From the human T2T-CHM13v2.0 reference genome, Homo sapiens, in the NCBI RefSeq assembly GCF_009914755.1, contig NC_060934.1: DNA of 64,000 bases. One strand, 5' to 3'. Below, piece by piece: positions 4,380 to 61,337 of the stretch; the stretch's first letter is position 1; each line of letters begins with the position of its first letter. The position numbers were made by a program, and so were the translations under genes. The notes under the pieces were generated by a model that made no database searches, had not been told where the DNA came from, and was given only the letters and a program-made list of their open reading frames with translations.

Positions 4380-5402
4380 CCCGTGCGTGATCCGCACGCG
4401 ACCAAAAGCCGAGCGCACACCTCCCGCCCCCGCCCCACTTGCCATCGCTCACACTAACGTGCACACATGCTCGTGCAAACGCGCACGCACGGAACCGCGC
4501 GCCCCCTCACACCCAGCCGCGCTCCCGGCCCGGCTCAGCCAGGTGCCCCCACGCGGCAGCGCCCGGTCTGCCCGCCGGCCCCCTGCGAACCCCTCGCCTC
4601 ACGCCCGCCTGCCTGCGCGCACGCACGCGCACGCACGCATTCCCCACGCCCCCGCGCGGGGGCGCAGGCCTTGGGTGGCGGGGTTTGGCCGGGAGCCGGC
4701 CGGGCCAGGGAGCGGCGAGCAGAGTCCAGGGTGCATCCCGCGCTTGGCTTCCGTGCGCAGCCTCCCCGCGCGGAGGCACCTGGCTCCCTCTCGGCTCTAG
4801 AACGCGAACAGTTGGCGTTGAGCACACAACTCCTCCTCCTTCTCCCCCGAGACCCCTGTACCCTCCCCGCGCGCCATCTCCCGCCCCTCATAACAGGCCC
4901 GAAGAGTAAACCCCCAAACGCGTCCAGAAGCGGCTCCCAACTCTTCGCCGGGAGCACTTTGGAGGCTGGATTTCGGAGAGACTCGGGATTGGGGTCTATT
5001 GCCGGCCTCTCCTGGATCCGGCTTGATTTTCATATTTTAAGAAGATTTTCTTATTACCTTTGATTACTCCTTTTTACCAAATTTCTGGAGGAGCTCAGTG
5101 GGGAGGATTGGGGGGAATCTGATTTTAAGAAAGAAAGCACCGAAGGGGCAATTATTAATTTTCCTCGGGTTTGGAATCACCCTCTGGACAAGAGAACGGG
5201 CGAGCGGGAGCTAGGAGGGAAGAGTGGAGAGGACCGGCGAGGCGCGCCAGCCGGAGCCACCTCCTTCCCGGCCGCCCCCTCCCCACTCCCCCTACACACA
5301 CACGCTCGCTCGCTCGCCGGCGCGCGCACACCCCCCGCGCCGGACCCGCACCTCGGCGGGCGCCACACACTCGGCAGCCCGAGCCGCGGTAGCCGCAGCG
5401 GG
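4380..5402 (+). promoter_or_regulatory. SORCS3 GC-rich promoter / 5' UTR
   Basis: GC boxes (CCCGCCCCCGCCCC ~4423-4437), NRF1-like GCGCACGC repeats, directly upstream of an ATG in strong Kozak context; TSS cannot be fixed from sequence. Confidence 0.75.
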
Positions 5403-6029
5403 ATGGAGGCGGCGCGCACGGAGCGCCCCGCAGGCAGGCCGGGGGCGCCGCTTGTCCGGACGGGGCTCCTACTCTTGTCGACGTGGGTCCTGGCCGGCGC
5501 CGAGATCACTTGGGACGCGACAGGCGGTCCCGGACGCCCGGCGGCCCCGGCTTCGCGGCCACCGGCGTTGTCTCCACTCTCGCCGCGGGCAGTGGCCAGC
5601 CAGTGGCCGGAGGAGCTGGCGTCGGCGCGGAGAGCCGCCGTGCTGGGGCGCCGGGCCGGACCAGAGCTGCTGCCCCAGCAGGGCGGCGGCAGAGGCGGTG
5701 AGATGCAGGTGGAAGCCGGAGGGACATCACCGGCAGGCGAGCGGCGGGGCCGGGGCATCCCAGCTCCTGCCAAGCTTGGCGGCGCGAGGAGGAGTCGCCG
5801 GGCGCAGCCCCCAATCACCCAGGAACGCGGGGACGCCTGGGCCACTGCTCCGGCCGATGGTTCCAGAGGAAGCCGTCCCCTTGCTAAGGGTTCCCGGGAG
5901 GAGGTGAAGGCGCCGCGGGCTGGGGGGTCGGCGGCTGAAGACCTCCGGCTGCCCAGCACCTCCTTCGCGCTGACCGGGGACTCGGCCCACAACCAAGCCA
6001 TGGTGCACTGGTCGGGACACAACAGCAGC
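5403..6029 (+). CDS. SORCS3: Sortilin-related VPS10 domain-containing receptor 3, coding exon 1 (aa 1-209)
   Basis: Translation MEAARTERPAGRPGAPLVRTGLLLLSTWVLAGA...STSFALTGDSAHNQAMVHWSGHNSS recognised as SORCS3 N-terminus; hydrophobic signal peptide; furin motif RRSRR (5787-5801); SorCS motif AHNQAMVHWSG; Kozak GGG-ATG-G; phase-0 donor AGC|GTGAGT (the ORF track reads into the intron to 6068). Confidence 0.97.
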
Positions 6030-19024: not shown

Positions 19025-19336
<312 letters not shown>

Positions 19337-22511: not shown

Positions 22512-22984
<473 letters not shown>

Positions 22985-43400: not shown

Positions 43401-44569
43401 GTAGACCACTTAGGGCTGCTGAGAACGTTGTCTACCTTGAAAGAGAAATGAAGGGACCCACCAGTTACTATGAATCAGGAATATTACCAGATGCTTTCTT
43501 TACATAGAGTTACTTGTCTCATAACACTGGGAGGTTAGTATTGAAGGAAACATACTCACAGAGGTAGAGTAACCAGTCCAGGGCTCACTTTTCCTGTCTT
43601 AATCCTCTCCTGGAATACTGTGTTGTCAACTGGATCCCCTTTACACCAAATCTACTTTTTCTTCATCGAAATAAATGACTCTTGGGTAGAATATCCCTGC
43701 CTCAAACTGTTCTGGAACTTTCTTCAGGGACTTGGATGGCCTTCTAAGTACTGGATTTTGCCTTGTCAGTCAAGACCTTCTTCTCTTTCCTGCAGAGTCC
43801 TTGCCGAGGGCTCTTGATTGCAACATTCCATTTCTTTCCTTCTGCCTTGGTGGAGGGTTTCAGAGAGCCTTCTGTTGACCTTCTTTTAATTGCTAATAAT
43901 TATTCAATTTTATATAGCCCACAGTGATAAATATTCATGAAAAGCACAGTGTATCAAGATCCAACACTTTAAGCTATTGTGTTTTTTTAATTAAACTGAA
44001 ACATGGGATTAAATGCAATAAAACGAAAAAAAGAGAGAGCATATATTGTTATCTATTTCAGTCCTGCTGTGAGACTGCATGGGAGGCCGATAGGAAACCT
44101 TGACCTGGGTGCTGCAGTGTTCTGTCCTAAAGTATGTAAAGGAGACCTCTAAAACATCTGGACCGGCTGGATTCATTCATTCATTCACACATTTATTCAT
44201 TAATTCACTCAGCACACATTTACTGATTGCTACCATGAGCCTTCCTAGTGCCTCTCAGAGGGATACAAATAGACTAGAACAGGGACCCCAAGGAGCTCAC
44301 TGTTGAGTCCTAGATGAGGCAGCTGCATGAATCAGCCATGCCAGAGTTGCATAGTAAATACAAGCAAGCACATAAAACAGCATTCACACGGGGGCAGTGA
44401 GCAGCTGCCTGGGGTGGTAGATGTGGTGTTGTAGAGGTGGTGGTCCCCATCAGGACTTAATACTTTATTAGTCCTGCCTTCAGTGCATCTTTTCTCAACC
44501 TAGTGAGTCTCATCTCTAGGCGTGTGCCAGAAGCAGGCCACCGACCTTCTCCTCTTTCCCTGGAGAGGC

Positions 44570-44825
44570 TGTCCCCCGTGTGGACTCTGAAGTCAGGCTG
44601 CATGGGTTCAAATCCCAGCGCTGCCACTTCCCAACTGCATAACCGTGGGTGAGTCATTTGACCTCCCCATGCCTTAGTTTCCTTATCTGTAAAATGGGGA
44701 TAATTCATAGAACCTACTGTATAGGATTGTTGTGAGGGCTAAACTAGTAACTGCACGTGAGGGGCACAGACCAGTGTCTGGCACACTCGAAGTGCCAAAA
44801 TGCTGACACGCGTTATTATTATTTG
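44570..44825 (+). mobile_element. MIR SINE, well preserved
   Basis: GGGTTCAAATCCCAGC...GCCTTAGTTTCCTTATCTGTAAAATGGGGATAAT...GGATTGTTGTGAGG. Confidence 0.92.
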
Positions 44826-45029
44826 TGCCGAGGCCTTGGCCCATGACTTCCAGGTTCTCTGGAGGGCTCTTGTGAGGTTTTGCTCTGTAGGAAGCAGGCA
44901 AGCTGCAGGTGCGCCCTTGTGGAGAGTTCTGAATCGCTCCTGAGAGTTTCTCTCAAGCACCAGCAAGAAGGAGGCAACGAAAAGCCTTAGCAAATACCTC
45001 CCAGACCACCAGCCTTCAGAAGGAGCAGG

Positions 45030-45520
45030 AGGCCAGGCAGGCCCTGCGGGGAACAGAGAGCAGGAGGGACAGGCGCCAGGGCAGAGAGCAAACTCCCTAG
45101 GACCCCACCTTCCGCAGAGCTCCGCCTCGGTTCCCCTCTCTCCCGGGAAGAGGACCAGCTTGCGCATGCGCTTGGGCGTAACACATGCCGGTCTCCCTGC
45201 TTTCCCACTTTAAAACGGGAAATGTACGTTATTTATTTGCAGCGCAGGCATGGGGAGACGCTCATGAATCAGCATGGGGATTTTCTCCAAGTAAACAAAC
45301 CCACTTTCTGGAGAGGCGGTTGCTTTTTCCAGCCTGAGAGATGAGAGAGAGCTGGAGAGCGCAGCAGTGCCGCAGGCTTCCTGGCACCCTGGAGTCCTTT
45401 CCCGGGCCGACTCCGTCATCCTCCCCCGCCCCTGCCTGCAGTGTGGGGGCTGCTGAGCGAACCCAGGCCCCAGCCCTCCCACGGAACACCACCAGGCTCG
45501 TCTTTTTGCGTCAATTCACC
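45030..45520. promoter_or_regulatory. Orphan intronic CpG-rich element with NRF1 motif
   Basis: Local CpG enrichment; TGCGCATGCGC at 45161-45171; GC box CCCCGCCCC ~45424; CRE half-sites. Confidence 0.6.
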
Positions 45521-46345
45521 CAATAGCTGTTTGAAGTCCAAGATGGGCTTCCAGGGGCTGTGGGCTGAGGAAGAGGCTCTGGGGCAAGGCTTGGTGGGAT
45601 GAACAGTTCAGGTTGATTTTGCTTAGGGGCCTTGGTTTGCACTCTAGCCCTGTGTGGCTTTTAGGGAATCACCAGCCCTCTCTGAGCCTAGGTTCTTTCT
45701 CCATCACTAGGGGATTGATCAGAGTTGAAGCCAGAGTCTTTCCCATGGCCAGTTGCACCCTCACCTCATTCCTGTCTGCTCCTCTAGCTTCCTGGGTCCA
45801 TCTACACTAGCCTCTCTGTTCTCCAATACCCCAGTAAAGCTCCTGCCCCAGGGCCTTTGCATGGACGGCTCCCTTTCTCGGAATGCTCTGTCCCCTGATA
45901 GCTGCATGGTTCATTCTCTCCTCTTCTGGTTTTTACTTAAATGTGTCTTCTCAGTCCTGTCCTGGCCACCCAGTCTAATACTATGTTCCCCTCCACATAT
46001 TTCTCTTTTTTTTCCTGCCTTAGTTTTCCTCCTGTAAATGTCCTGCATATTGTATATTTTAATGATTTATCTATTGATTGCCTGTCCTCTGGTGGGAATG
46101 CAGTCTCCATGAAGACAGATTTTGTCTGTTTTGTTTCCAGGCTGCCATGTGATACTGTGAAGGGGCTGGTGGGGGGAGTATTATAGAGGTGGGGAAACTT
46201 AGCAAGGCAAGGTGGTAGAAACATTTTGTGATTGTGTGCTTTCTGGTTCTCTTTTATTTCCAGAGCTGTGAAATTTAGTGGCCTCTCCAGAAAGCAGTTT
46301 GTTTACTTGGAAAAAATCTTCATGCTAGTTCATGAGCATCTCACC
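45252..46345 (+). repeat. Long-range imperfect inverted repeat (arms 45252-45376 and 46225-46345)
   Basis: Hand alignment: 45260-45317 pairs with 46337-46281; 45338-45363 pairs with 46260-46235. Confidence 0.92.
45718..46145 (+). mobile_element. L2 3' fragment (inside the loop of the inverted repeat)
   Basis: CCCCAGGGCCTTTGCA...GAATGCTCT...CTCCATGAAGACAGATTTTGTCTGTTTTGTT. Confidence 0.82.
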
Positions 46346-46414
46346 TGGCACACCTGGCCCAAAGTAGGTGTCTAATAGTTGGTGAATGAATGAATATGAG
46401 GCCAGGTCCTGGGG

Positions 46415-46600
46415 CTGCATGGCCTGGACTCTTGCACGTATCACCTTTGTGAAGCTGGGCCAGTTTCTTAGCCTCTCTGGCTTTGGCTCCCTTTCCTGTA
46501 AAAAGGGGTTAATGATGTAACTACCTTGTAAGGTTGTTGGAGGACTCTGTGTGAATCTGAATAAGGCCTGAACCTTATAAGTCCTCAGCAGGTTAGCTTT
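46415..46600 (+). mobile_element. MIR SINE
   Basis: GGGCCAGTTTCTTAGCCTCTCTG...CTGTAAAAAGGGG...GGTTGTTG. Confidence 0.72.
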
Positions 46601-48798
46601 TATTTTTAAAAGTACTTTCAGCTCTAACATTCTAATTCCAGGCAGAGGGGTGCCTCCTATGGAACTTGGGTCAAGTCCTTAAGGAATAACTTATGTAGGC
46701 AATAGGATGGTTAATGCATCCTGCCTCCCAGGCTGCTCTGGAAGAGGTTGGGGGCTGCTGGTCAAATTGCAGGAGATGCAGCTTTCTCCAGCATATTTAT
46801 TTTGCTAAAATCATTGAAGAAACACAGCTAGGCAGAAAAGTATTCCAAAATGACACCTGCGTTAGGAAACTTGGAGGCTGTGGGTCTGGTACCAGGAGGA
46901 AGGTTGGGATGGAGGGGTCTGGCCCTGGCTCCTGAAGCAAACCATGAACTGCTCTTGAGGGCAGATGCAGCAGCCCCTGAAGCTCTCTGCTTTCTGCTCC
47001 TGAGTCTTGCTCAGGCCTGGTCCAGGATTTTATCTAGTTGTTCAGCTCTTCCCTGGCATCATGGCCATTGTGGGGGCCATTGGCTTTTAGCCAGTACTCT
47101 GGGATCTCTACCTACCCTTGACATCTAAGCATGCTTTGGCTCAGGGCCTCACAGACCACAGAAGCAGGCCCTAAATGTCCTAGGAGTAGGGACACTTGTC
47201 CTCAACCTGGTGCATCCCCAGCCAACTTTACAGTGGACCATTCAAGTCAAGGTAACATTGGACCTGGGTCATGAAGAGTCCAGGGAACAAAAGAAGACTT
47301 TGAGAAGGAGAAAGCCTTTTTAAATTTGGGGCACAGTACTCAAATAGGAAGTTTGAGTACAAGTCTGTGTTTGCCTCTTGGTCTTAGAGACAGGATACAC
47401 TTCTCAGGGCTAAAGTGCCCAAGACTCCACGTACTTTGGATTCAGATAGAGCAGATGCTTTGAAATGAATCCTCACTGCCCACTTCTGTTCCTCATAATT
47501 GTTCTTTATGGGGAAGATAAAAGAAGTGGCCAGCTAAGACCTATCTGGTGAGTCAGTATATCTTCCAGGATGATTTTTGCCCTCAGCATGAAGCCTTGAG
47601 TAAGAGAGGAGTGACCAGGAGAGAAAGGTATTTTTACCCTTTTGCCTTGATGCTATCATGATGGCTCATTGTATAGATGCTGTGGGTAATTTTTAGTGCC
47701 AGGTGGTATTTGTCACCTGATTTTTGTCCCAGCCAAACAGCAGCTTGGAGAGGGGAAGCTAGGTATGGGAGGGATTGGCCTTAGGACTTAGAAGTGACAG
47801 GCTCGCCAGTTGGCTCCCTGGCAGCACCAGTGGCTGGCAAGGTCTGGAATGGGTCCCTCCACATCTATGAAAAGTCTTATTGTCCAGCCAAACAAACAAT
47901 TTGCTTATTCCTGCTGCATGTGTTTGGTAAGCATCTTCTATATGCTGGGCTCAGGGCTCTATGCTGGGGATACAAGATAGTAAGACCAAGGCCCTCTCAT
48001 TGAGTTATAACCATCTCAGAGGAGAGCCTTAGAAAGCCTGCAAAGCTCTCTAATAGGGGTCTATAGAAAGCTCTATAGTAACAGAGAATGTTGTCTACAT
48101 TTACATGCTATCACCTCCACCAGGAGAGTTCACAGAAGTGACACAGTTACTGTATCTTGAAGTTTCCAGGAATCAAGGTGGTAATTCTGCTGTGGCTCAG
48201 GGATGGCTCTGGCACGAGGCACCCCTGGTCTTGACACTCTCCAGGGATGTGACCCTGGACTGGTAAAGGGCTGTGAGTCTCAGCTTCCTCAGCTGTAACC
48301 CAGGAAGCATGGTACCACCTTATAGGGTGGCTGCGAGGATTAAAGGAGGTGCCATTCATAAAGCATGCCTGGCATGTGGCAGGGAATGGAGCTGTTATCA
48401 TTCTGTAAGCACTATGGTGCTTTGCTTCATTTCTTATTCCTATCTTTAATTGGTGATTTGGTTGCATTCTCTGGAATAGTGACATACAGAATAGGGGAAG
48501 CCCATTCATTCATTCAGTTAATTCCTCCAATTTTTCAACATTTTTTGAGCACCCACTGTGTGCCCGGCACGGGAGCCACCCCTGGGACACAGATGTAGGT
48601 AAGGCTGACTCCTTGCCCTTGAACATTGGCAGGGGCTGCGGTGTGTTTGTGGCTCCTCAGTGGACCCTGCTGCTGCTCAGCCCTCTTCCACCACTGGCCA
48701 CTCGTGGGATCTGTGGGCAGTTTTTTTTCACTGCTTCTGTTCTTCAGATATCTCAACTGAAGAATGAGGATAATGATAATATCAATTTTATGATATAG

Positions 48799-53149: not shown

Positions 53150-53850
53150 GGCCCTGCATGACTTGCCCTCTTTAGGCATTCTTGCTTCATTTTCCATCAC
53201 TCCTGTCCTCCCACCTGGAGCTCCAGGTAAATAAAACTGCTTGTAGTTCCAAGAAAGCTCTGTGCCCTTCACACCTCCAGGACTGTGTACCTTCTGTGTC
53301 TCTCCTGACTCAGCAAGATCCAGTCATCCTTCAGTGTTCAGCTCAGATACCTCTTCCTCCAGGAAGCCCTCCTGACAGCCACTGGCCAACTTGGCCTTCA
53401 GGACTCTTACTCTTAAGTTCTGCTTACGTTGCCCATGTTGCCATCCACATTCCACAATGTGTGGACTTGTGGTTGTTTGTTTGCGTGTCTGTCTCTTCAT
53501 GTAGACTGGAAGTTCCATGAATTATATCTTTTAATCATTCATGCCTCAGGGCCTTTGCACAAGCTGTTGGTTCTACTTGGGACACTTTCATCTTCTCACT
53601 GTTCATGAGATCTCAGCTTAAATGTCACCTTTTCAGAGTAGCCCTCCCTGACTCCCCTTACACTGGAAAACTACTTTATTTATATTAGCACCTGTTTTAT
53701 CTCTCAGTGGTTTATTACAACTTGACCTTTTTTTTCATTTTGTCAGTCTTCACCACTGGATGATAACATCTTGCAGGGCAGGTGGCTTATCAGCTGCTTC
53801 ACCATCATATACCCAACACCTGGCCCAGTGCCATTTGCTGATGGGCTGGA
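53150..53850 (+). mobile_element. L2 fragments
   Basis: CCTCCAGGAAGCCCTCCTGAC; GCCTCAGGGCCTTTGCAC; TCTCAGCTTAAATGTCACC. Confidence 0.75.
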
Positions 53851-59904: not shown

Positions 59905-61337
59905 ACCATTGCATTAATTCACAATAGTCAAAATATTGAAACAGCTTAAGTGTCCAATGGTGGCTGAATGGATAAAGAAATTGTGATGTATATATATAAT
60001 ATATATATTATATACACATATAATATATATAATATGTATTATATACACACATATAATATATATAATATATATCATATACACATATAATATATAATATATA
60101 TCATATACACATATAATATATAATATATATCATATACACATATTATATATAATATATATCATATACACATATTATATATAATATATATACACATATAATA
60201 TATAATATATATCATATACACATATAATATATAATATATATCATATACACATATATAATATATATCATATACACATATAATATATGATATATATCATATA
60301 CACATATAATATATGATATATATCATATACACATATAATATATGATATATATCATATACACATATAATATATGATATATATCATATACACATATAATATA
60401 TGATATATATCATATACACATATAATATATGATATATATCATATACACATATAATATATGATATATATCATATACACATATAATATATATAATATATATC
60501 ATATATAGTATATAATATATATTATATAATATATAATATATAATATACAATATACAATATATATAATATATAATATAGAATATATATAATATATAATATA
60601 TAATATAGAATATATAATATATAGAATATAGAATATATAATATATAGAATATATAATATATAATATATAATATATAATATATATAATATATAATATATAA
60701 TATAGAATATATATTATATACATATATAATATAGAATATATAATATACGTATATATAATATATAATATATATTATATATACGTATATATTATATATAATA
60801 TATATTATATACGTATATATTATATATAATATATATTATATACGTATATATAATATATAATATATATTATATACGTATATATAATATATAACATATATAA
60901 TATATAATATATATTATATACGTATATATAATATATATAATATATATATATAATGGAATATTATTCAGCCATAAAATGGAAGGAAATCCTGCTATTTGTG
61001 ACAACATGGATAACCTGGAGGACATTATGCCAAGTGAAATAAGCCGGACACAGAAAGACAAATACTGCATAATCTCACTTACATGTGGAATCTAAAAAAG
61101 TTGAACTCATAGAAGCAGGGAGTACCAGGGACTGGCGGGTGGAGGATATGGCGATACGTTGTACAATGGATACAAAATTTCAGTTATAAGCTGAACCAGT
61201 TCTGGGGATCTAATGTCCAGCATGGGTGGTGATGGATGTATTAATTTGATTTTGGTAATCATCACATTGAACACCTTGAAAATATTCAATTTTTGTTTGA
61301 CAAGTATTTTAAAATAAATAGATGAATAAATAAATAA
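59905..61337 (+). mobile_element. L1MA-type 3' end containing expanded TA-rich VNTR
   Basis: GAATGGATAAAGAAATTGTG|TA-array|ATGGAATATTATTCAGCCATAAAA...GACAAATACTGCAT...(TAAA)n tail. Confidence 0.9.
59989..60952. repeat. TA-rich compound minisatellite/VNTR (~960 bp)
   Basis: 29-bp unit TCATATACACATATAATATATGATATATA tandemly repeated (starts 60265, 60294, 60323...), then AATATAT/AATATAG and TACGTATA-containing domains. Confidence 0.97.

What the first reader, a model, noticed from the sequence alone, without database searches (positions are those of the whole stretch)
45252..46345. Non-Alu ~120-bp long-range RNA duplex in SORCS3 intron 1 with sense-strand G-U bias and ADAR-type A:C mismatches
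Seen in sequence, by hand alignment: 45260-45317 pairs with 46337-46281 (50 Watson-Crick pairs, 3 G-U, 2 A:C mismatches, one 3x2 loop, with perfect runs of 15 and 14 bp). 45338-45363 pairs with 46260-46235 for 26 of 26 positions (18 Watson-Crick, 8 G-U). The linker between these stems also pairs loosely. The ~850-nt loop contains an L2 fragment, and I do not recognise the arms as any repeat family. Neutral decay of a DNA inverted duplication should give about equal G-T and A-C mismatches; the two core stems show 11 versus 2. Inference: pairing is maintained in the + strand pre-mRNA. One A:C mismatch (A46327 opposite C45270) lies in a UAG triplet, the established preferred ADAR context; others are A46312 and A46338. 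This resembles an editing-complementary or editing-inducer structure in a neuronal gene.
Basis: partly seen in the sequence, partly recalled or inferred. Interest (0 to 1): 0.8.

Follow-up and report, generated by a model that had tools for sequence, protein, structure and literature searches.

The report
Old inverted duplication in SORCS3 intron
A ~193-base piece of a GC-rich regulatory block in SORCS3 intron 1 was long ago copied backwards into a nearby ancient repeat, so the intron RNA can fold into a long duplex, but nothing found here shows that the duplex is kept by selection.

Summary
Both stems pair exactly as described (50 WC, 3 G-U, 2 A:C and a 3x2 loop; 26 of 26 with 8 G-U). The arms match only each other in the genome. 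The + strand duplex is stronger than the - strand one (-153 vs -124 kcal/mol).

The right copy splits an old dispersed repeat, whose profile runs from inside the loop to beyond the arm. The arms are therefore not the termini of one transposon. They are a local inverted duplication.

The 11:2 G-U excess came from counting only the best-paired blocks. Over the same span it is 16:7, and 24:11 over the whole unit. A stronger asymmetry is that the left copy carries G/C where the right carries A/T (28:7). The left copy keeps 8 CpGs and the right keeps none. Strand-symmetric neutral simulations give an equal or larger bias in 4-12% of runs.

No exon lies within 39 kb. Conservation and editing could not be tested here. 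Most likely this is a neutral relic that can incidentally form dsRNA.

The parts
45252..45444 (+). Left (probable source) copy of the duplicated unit, about 193 nt, G+C rich, with 8 CpGs.
   Evidence: The transition-tolerant local alignment covers L 45231-45444 and R 46369-46152, scoring 225 against a shuffle mean of 39 and maximum of 66. The outer 21 nt are not significant (187 of 500 shuffles). The inner extension alone is reached by 4 of 500 shuffles. CpG count.
46152..46345 (-). Right, inverted copy of the unit, about 194 nt, A+T richer, with 0 CpG. It holds the stem-1 arm (46281-46337) and the stem-2 arm (46235-46260). Boundaries are good to about 10 nt.
   Evidence: It lies in the 195-nt gap between the two halves of the dispersed-repeat profile.
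45797..46151 (+). Body of an old dispersed repeat (L2 3' end; the name is recalled, not given by a tool) that forms most of the loop.
   Evidence: Ten other genomic copies match 45797-45972 at 71-86% identity. A profile built from five of them matches its positions 12-208 to 45946-46137, E = 9.2e-6.
46346..46399 (+). Tail of the same dispersed repeat, lying outside the right arm.
   Evidence: Profile positions 215-288 match 46333-46399, E = 6.8e-5, on the same strand. They are adjacent in the profile to the body match but 195 nt away in the window. The in-window copies at 53619-53832 and 48621-48503 are uninterrupted over the profile positions each spans (3-239 and 179-293), which include that junction.
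45000..45600 (.). G+C-rich, CpG-retaining block that holds the left copy. It overlaps the RefSeq 'enhancer' 45146-45641 from the hub's table.
   Evidence: GC is 0.52-0.67 and CpG o/e 0.39-0.80 in the 200-nt windows starting between 45000 and 45400. From 45500 to 46799, CpG o/e is 0-0.18. The 500-nt GC profile peaks at 0.618 at 45000-45499 in a background of 0.39-0.47.

Best explanation
This is the relic of an old local inverted duplication. About 193 bp of a G+C-rich, CpG-retaining regulatory block (45252-45444) was copied in reverse orientation about 0.7 kb downstream, into the 3' end of an older dispersed repeat (46152-46345). The likely route is replication template switching or templated break repair. 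That step is inferred.

The two copies then diverged under different regimes. The left copy kept its G/C and CpGs. I infer that it is unmethylated in the germline or constrained as part of the enhancer. The right copy sits in ordinary A+T-rich intron and lost all its CpGs, drifting from G/C to A/T.

The + strand of the left arm is G-rich, especially in stem 2 (12 G, 3 C). C-to-T decay on the + strand of the right arm therefore leaves G-U wobbles rather than A:C mismatches. The known A->G over T->C excess on the sense strand of introns pushes the same way.

The result is that SORCS3 pre-mRNA can fold into a long-range imperfect duplex of about 112 nt. As an inference, this duplex is a plausible low-level, promiscuous ADAR substrate in neurons. 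The duplex is a by-product, not a maintained element.
For: The arms match only each other in the 3.1-Gb assembly. This holds for BLAST with each arm and with 45140-46480 at E <= 10. A 24-mer search allowing 3 mismatches gave 4 other hits against 4 for the reversed control, and none of the 4 shows flank similarity.

Homology is collinear over about 193 nt: 182 aligned columns, with 131 WC, 24 G-U, 11 A:C and 16 transversions.

The right copy fills a 195-nt gap between profile positions 208 and 215 of a dispersed repeat whose other copies are uninterrupted.

The polarity of transitions is left = G/C and right = A/T in 28 of 35 (p = 0.0005). In the inner part it is 12 of 12. The left unit has 8 CpGs and the right has none. 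At 5 of the 8 sites the right copy reads TpG, CpA or TpA.

Within the arms the share of G-U among left-G/C transitions is 11 of 16, against 0.61 expected from G/(G+C) (p = 0.37). Neutral strand-symmetric simulations give GU >= 16 of 23 in 9% of runs when only the right arm changes, and 3.7% when both change. They give the observed strand energy gap in 11.5% and 5%.

PMC2927911 (sections 3 and 5 read) reports [A->G]/[T->C] > 1 on the non-template strand along whole transcripts, and a G+T excess in mammalian introns.
Against: Over the whole unit, G-U still exceeds the compositional expectation (19 of 28 left-G/C transitions against 0.47, p = 0.02). The excess comes mostly from the inner extension (8 of 12 against 0.30, p = 0.009), where the left + strand is C-rich.

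Stem 2 has 8 differences, all G-U-preserving transitions, with no transversion.

The 66-column core is significantly more alike than the rest: 56 of 66 against 75 of 116, Fisher p = 0.0035. By my own arithmetic on the composition counts, composition accounts for only about a 1.1-fold rate difference. Some constraint or gene conversion on the core is therefore possible.

No outgroup was available, so the direction of every change is inferred, not shown. Germline methylation of the two copies was not examined. The mechanism of the duplication is not shown, and the junctions are only resolved to about 10 nt.
Confidence: 0.7

Rival explanations
1. The duplex is maintained by selection in the sense-strand pre-mRNA. 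It would act as an ADAR-binding or other dsRNA-protein element of a neuronal gene, and changes that keep pairing through G-U would be tolerated.
For: The + strand duplex is 24-29 kcal/mol more stable than the - strand one. G-U to A:C is 24:11 over the unit (p = 0.04), and 19 of 28 against an expected 0.47 (p = 0.02). Stem 2 is 26 of 26 paired, with all 8 differences being G-U. The core is better preserved than the rest (p = 0.0035). The MFE and the centroid keep the duplex.
Against: The bias lies within the neutral range once the arm polarity and composition are modelled (4-12% of simulations; p = 0.37 in the arms). The - strand also keeps the duplex. Seven A:C mismatches and six transversions sit inside the 112-nt arms. 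No exon lies within 39 kb, so there is no target for an editing-complementary or inducer role. The 28:7 G/C-to-A/T polarity and the loss of all CpGs in the right copy are what neutral decay predicts. RNA selection does not predict them.
Confidence: 0.1
2. The constraint is at the DNA level. The duplication copied an enhancer module, and the core of both copies is kept because it binds transcription factors. RNA pairing would then be a side effect of two conserved DNA copies.
For: The left copy lies wholly inside the RefSeq 'enhancer' 45146-45641 (hub table). The core is more alike than the rest. The 15-bp perfect run holds GTAAACAAA, which I recall as a forkhead-type site; this was not tested by any tool.
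Against: The right copy sits in CpG-free, A+T-rich sequence with no annotated element. There is no evidence of any kind for activity of the right copy. The motif assignment is from recall only.
Confidence: 0.1
3. The two arms are independent insertions, in opposite orientations, of an ancient low-copy mobile element of about 190 bp. The family would be otherwise eroded beyond detection.
For: Both copies appear full length, and the right one is a clean insertion into another repeat. The left unit has a short possible terminal inverted repeat at its two ends, seen by eye and not tested against chance.
Against: No third copy was found in the whole genome by BLAST at E <= 10 or by 24-mer search. 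Two sole survivors lying 0.7 kb apart is improbable. The core identity of 85% is high for independent copies of a family too old to detect.
Confidence: 0.07

Closest known systems
Local reverse-complement copies made by replication template switching or templated insertion (PMC5453318 and PMC8794818, abstracts read)
   Same: A reverse-complement copy of nearby sequence on the same chromosome creates a ready-made hairpin stem in one event, without selection. The copy here interrupts pre-existing sequence.
   Different: The published events are described as short mutation clusters. This copy is about 193 bp and lands about 0.7 kb away. Switch-point microhomology could not be resolved at this age.
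Intronic inverted-repeat Alu pairs, the bulk ADAR substrates (general knowledge, not from a call)
   Same: Two inverted copies within one intron are predicted to form a long imperfect intramolecular dsRNA.
   Different: The arms are not Alu or any detectable family and are a unique pair. They are shorter (about 112 nt well paired) and much older (72-85% identity). Editing is unknown.
Editing inducer elements, EIE (PMC5654063; abstract and passages including part of Table 1 read)
   Same: A stable long intronic stem that could attract ADAR.
   Different: In the rows I saw, EIEs are hairpins of 64-149 nt lying 45-220 nt from a site-selectively edited exonic site, and they are conserved. This duplex has a loop of about 870 nt and no exon within 39 kb. 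Conservation was not tested.
Terminal inverted repeats of a DNA transposon or MITE
   Same: Two inverted arms bracket about 1.1 kb.
   Different: The interior and exterior are joined by one older repeat that the right arm interrupts. There are no other copies in the genome.

Membership tests
DNA transposon / MITE terminal inverted repeats | The two arms are the ends of one inserted element, so the sequence inside is foreign to the sequence outside | tested here: not met
   The profile of the dispersed repeat runs from inside (positions 12-208 = 45946-46137) to outside (215-288 = 46333-46399) across the right arm.
DNA transposon / MITE terminal inverted repeats | Other copies of the arms exist elsewhere in the genome | tested here: not met
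   Only the partner arm is found at E <= 10. The 24-mer search gave 4 other hits against 4 for the control, without flank similarity. The tool states that its counts are lower bounds.
DNA transposon / MITE terminal inverted repeats | Target-site duplication flanking the element | tested here: inconclusive
   No matching flanks by eye (8 bp or TA). The junctions are known only to about 10 nt.
Local inverted duplication by template switch / templated insertion | A reverse-complement copy of nearby sequence, inserted into pre-existing sequence | tested here: met
   193-nt collinear inverted homology. The right copy fills a 195-nt gap in an otherwise continuous repeat.
Local inverted duplication by template switch / templated insertion | Microhomology at the switch points | tested here: inconclusive
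   Short similar strings are visible at both junctions. They are not distinguishable from chance: the outer flank is reached by 187 of 500 shuffles.
Editing inducer element (EIE) | A stable long double-stranded stem | tested here: met
   -153.3 kcal/mol against -52 for shuffled partners. The duplex is kept in the MFE and the centroid.
Editing inducer element (EIE) | Lies next to a site-selectively edited site (45-220 nt in the table rows read, PMC5654063) | tested here: not met
   The hub gene table shows the only exon in the window at 5365-6029, 39 kb upstream, and none up to 64000. No edited site is known to me. A search for 'SORCS3' with 'RNA editing' found 11 papers holding both terms; none of the 10 listed is about editing of SORCS3, judged from titles and abstract starts.
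Editing inducer element (EIE) | Sequence and structure conserved between species; adenosines edited | not testable with these tools
   No vertebrate genomes other than this one and no RNA-seq or editing tables are held.
Editing-complementary sequence (ECS) | One strand of the duplex is the exon that carries the edited site | tested here: not met
   Both arms are deep in intron 1 (hub table).
Inverted-repeat Alu dsRNA | The arms are Alu elements | tested here: not met
   The arms have one partner each in the genome. No masked stretch of 100 bp or more lies in 45252-46345 (hub table).
Any curated RNA family (Rfam 15) | A match at or near the gathering score | tested here: not met
   44500-47000, both strands, E <= 1: only two sub-threshold miRNA-model hits at 44653-44738, outside the arms.

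The most novel reading that the evidence does not exclude
A unique, non-transposon inverted duplication, born by a single template-switch-type event about the age of the placental mammals or older, has since been kept as a sense-strand dsRNA in a neuronal gene's first intron. Wobble-preserving substitutions would be tolerated and it would serve as an ADAR or other dsRNA-protein landing pad. That would be a traceable example of a functional long-range RNA structure created in one mutational step.
Probability: 0.1. Interest if true: 0.6.

Novelty: new member of a known kind. Interest (0 to 1): 0.25.

Why it matters
If it is only a relic, its value is methodological. It shows that a G-U over A:C excess in an intronic inverted repeat is not on its own evidence of RNA-level selection. 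Three ordinary causes produce it together: choosing the paired blocks before counting, unequal decay of the two copies (one in a CpG-retaining block, one in bulk intron), and the purine richness of one strand. If the residual strand bias proved real in a mammalian alignment, this would be a rare dated case of a long-range intronic dsRNA outside Alu, in a psychiatric-GWAS gene (that status is recalled, not checked here).

Tried and rejected
1. Terminal repeats of one transposon: rejected, because the right arm interrupts an older repeat.
2. Member of a dispersed family: no third copy by BLAST or by 24-mer with 3 mismatches.
3. Stem 2 as chance pairing of a GA-rich stretch with a CT-rich stretch: rejected. 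It is collinear with stem 1 (20-nt linker on both sides), and 0 of 500 shuffles reach its score.
4. Homology extending outward beyond 45252/46345: not significant (187 of 500 shuffles).
5. Known RNA family: none.
6. Literature: 'SORCS3' with 'RNA editing' found 11 papers, of which 10 were listed. 'SORCS3' with 'intron 1' and 'enhancer' found 7 papers. None is about this locus, judged from titles and abstract starts only.
8. Composition as the cause of the better-preserved core: by my own arithmetic on the counts it explains only about a 1.1-fold rate difference, so the core's 85% against 65% remains partly unexplained.

Full report
**The observation**

Position-by-position counting gives the following:
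- 45260-45317 with 46337-46281: 50 Watson-Crick pairs, 3 G-U, 2 A:C and a 3x2 loop, with perfect runs of 15 and 14 bp.
- 45338-45363 with 46260-46235: 26 of 26 paired (18 Watson-Crick, 8 G-U).

The repeat finder reports the core as a 49-nt inverted repeat at 86% complementarity, with 996 nt between the arms. A local DNA alignment gives 66 columns at 85% identity. A46327 is in a TAG triplet opposite C45270.

This is not chance. The partner arm is found at E = 1.1e-10 against the whole 3.1-Gb assembly. The linker and stem-2 block scores 55, against a shuffle mean of 18.5 and maximum of 34, with 0 of 500 shuffles reaching it.

**RNA folding**

| Fold | Energy (kcal/mol) | Source |
|---|---|---|
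| Arms as a two-strand duplex, + strand | -153.3 | |
| Arms as a two-strand duplex, - strand | -124.0 | |
| + strand arm with shuffled partner arms | mean -52, sd 6 | |

The full 1141-nt stretch keeps the long-range duplex in both the minimum-energy and the centroid structures, on both strands.

**What the arms are**

Each arm finds only itself and its partner in the genome at E <= 10. A 1341-nt query over the whole structure finds, besides itself and the two arm-to-arm matches, 10 other places, all matching 45797-45972 at 71-86% identity. That part of the loop is therefore an old dispersed repeat.

A 24-mer from the best-kept part of the arm, with up to 3 mismatches, found 6 places. Two are the arms. 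The other four equal the reversed-pattern control (4) and share nothing with the arms beyond the 24-mer. The arms are a unique pair.

A transition-tolerant local alignment runs from L 45231-45444 to R 46369-46152, scoring 225 against a shuffle mean of 39 and maximum of 66.
- The outer 21 nt are not significant on their own (187 of 500 shuffles).
- The inner extension, 45364-45444 against 46152-46234, is significant (4 of 500) and is collinear.

The duplicated unit is therefore about 193 nt: 45252-45444 against 46345-46152. It has 182 aligned columns, with 131 identical (72%), 35 transitions and 16 transversions.

**The right copy is an insertion into the older repeat**

I fetched nine 1-kb regions around genomic copies of the loop repeat, aligned five of them and built a profile from those five. 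On the + strand the profile matches:
- positions 12-208 to 45946-46137 (E = 9.2e-6);
- positions 215-288 to 46333-46399 (E = 6.8e-5).

The two matches are adjacent in the profile but 195 nt apart in the window. Two other copies in the window (53619-53832 and 48621-48503) are uninterrupted over the profile positions each spans (3-239 and 179-293), which include that junction.

The gap coincides, to within about 10 nt, with the right copy of the unit. It also points to the left copy, in unique sequence, as the source. Alternatively, both copies could derive from a lost third copy.

I infer a local inverted duplication by template switching or templated repair. This class of event is known to create ready-made hairpins without selection (PMC5453318 and PMC8794818, abstracts read). 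Those papers describe short events, and the mechanism here is not shown.

**The G-U bias**

But blocks defined by continuous pairing exclude A:C mismatches by construction.

| Span | G-U | A:C | Two-sided p vs 0.5 |
|---|---|---|---|
| Continuous arms 45252-45363 | 16 | 7 | 0.09 |
| Whole unit 45252-45444 | 24 | 11 | 0.04 |

A stronger asymmetry is the polarity between the copies. The left copy has G/C where the right has A/T in 28 of 35 transitions (p = 0.0005), and in 12 of 12 in the inner part.

The two copies also sit in different surroundings:
- The left unit has 8 CpGs and lies in a block with GC 0.52-0.67 and CpG o/e 0.39-0.80.
- The right unit has no CpG and lies in sequence with CpG o/e of 0-0.18.
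- At 5 of the 8 CpG sites the right copy reads TpG, CpA or TpA.

Given that polarity, a G-U arises wherever the left + strand has G, and an A:C wherever it has C. In the arms the left + strand has 35 G and 22 C, and in stem 2 it has 12 G and 3 C. The observed 11 of 16 does not differ from the expected 0.61 (p = 0.37).

I ran strand-symmetric neutral simulations of the 112-nt arms, with 23 transitions, 6 transversions and G/C sites 2.2-fold more mutable (400 runs per model).

| Model | Runs with G-U >= 16 | Runs with + minus - energy gap of at least 24 kcal/mol |
|---|---|---|
| Only the right arm changes | 9% | 11.5% |
| Both arms change | 3.7% | 5% |

On the non-template strand A->G exceeds T->C along whole transcripts, and mammalian introns drift to a G+T excess (PMC2927911, sections 3 and 5 read). 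That favours G-U over A:C in sense RNA.

**What remains against the neutral reading**

- Over the whole unit, G-U among left-G/C transitions is 19 of 28 against an expected 0.47 (p = 0.02). This is driven by the inner extension (8 of 12 against 0.30, p = 0.009), where the alignment is least secure.
- Stem 2 has no transversion among its 8 differences.
- The 66-column core is more alike than the rest (56 of 66 against 75 of 116, p = 0.0035). Composition does not explain this.

The core result fits constraint on the left core as part of the enhancer, with only the right copy drifting. It also fits gene conversion, DNA-level constraint on both cores, or RNA-level constraint. Without an outgroup these cannot be separated.

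**Comparison with known systems**

- It works like any intronic inverted repeat that can form dsRNA.
- It is not an Alu pair.
- It is not an editing-complementary sequence, because both arms are intronic.
- It does not meet the positional criterion of an editing inducer element. In the rows I read, those lie 45-220 nt from an edited exonic site (PMC5654063). Here the nearest annotated exon is 39 kb away (hub table).
- Rfam has nothing in the arms.
- Literature searches for SORCS3 with RNA editing (11 papers found, 10 listed) and with intron 1 and enhancer (7 papers) showed nothing on this locus in titles or abstract starts.
- Editing, duplex reads, conservation and covariation could not be tested. 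No other vertebrate genome and no RNA data are held here.

**Verdict**

The structure is real, correctly described and previously unnamed. Its origin is now clearer, but it is most likely a neutral relic (0.7). The selected-RNA reading keeps about 0.1.

Noticed in passing
window 45162-45171: The perfect palindrome GCGCATGCGC occurs once in 64 kb, with 0 of 100 shuffles giving any match. It lies in the CpG-richest 200 nt (o/e 0.80), 80 nt upstream of the left copy. I recall this as the NRF1 site typical of CpG-island promoters, which raises the possibility of an unannotated promoter rather than only an enhancer.
   Followed up: partly
window 45286-45300 and 46297-46311: The 15-bp run that is perfect in both copies contains GTAAACAAA. 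I recall this as a forkhead-type binding motif; no motif tool was available.
   Followed up: no
window 44671-44704 and 46480-46513: A direct repeat pair of 34 nt at 76% identity (D1). Two sub-threshold Rfam miRNA-model hits (mir-302_2, mir-633) lie at 44653-44738. They look like cores of another ancient SINE (MIR, by recall), not miRNA genes.
   Followed up: no
window 46343-46362: At the right junction a 9-nt string appears twice in tandem with two differences (read). It may be a small duplication made at the insertion, or chance.
   Followed up: no
window 59958-61121: A dense cluster of self-complementary repeats, with many overlapping inverted pairs of 80-200 nt at 71-90%, some with 0-1 nt between the arms. 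The hub table lists it as masked. It is probably a palindromic tandem or simple repeat.
   Followed up: no
window 19040-19174 and 22598-22732: Another inverted pair, 135 nt at 77% complementarity, 3.4 kb apart. The left arm lies in a masked stretch, so these are probably two copies of a common repeat.
   Followed up: no
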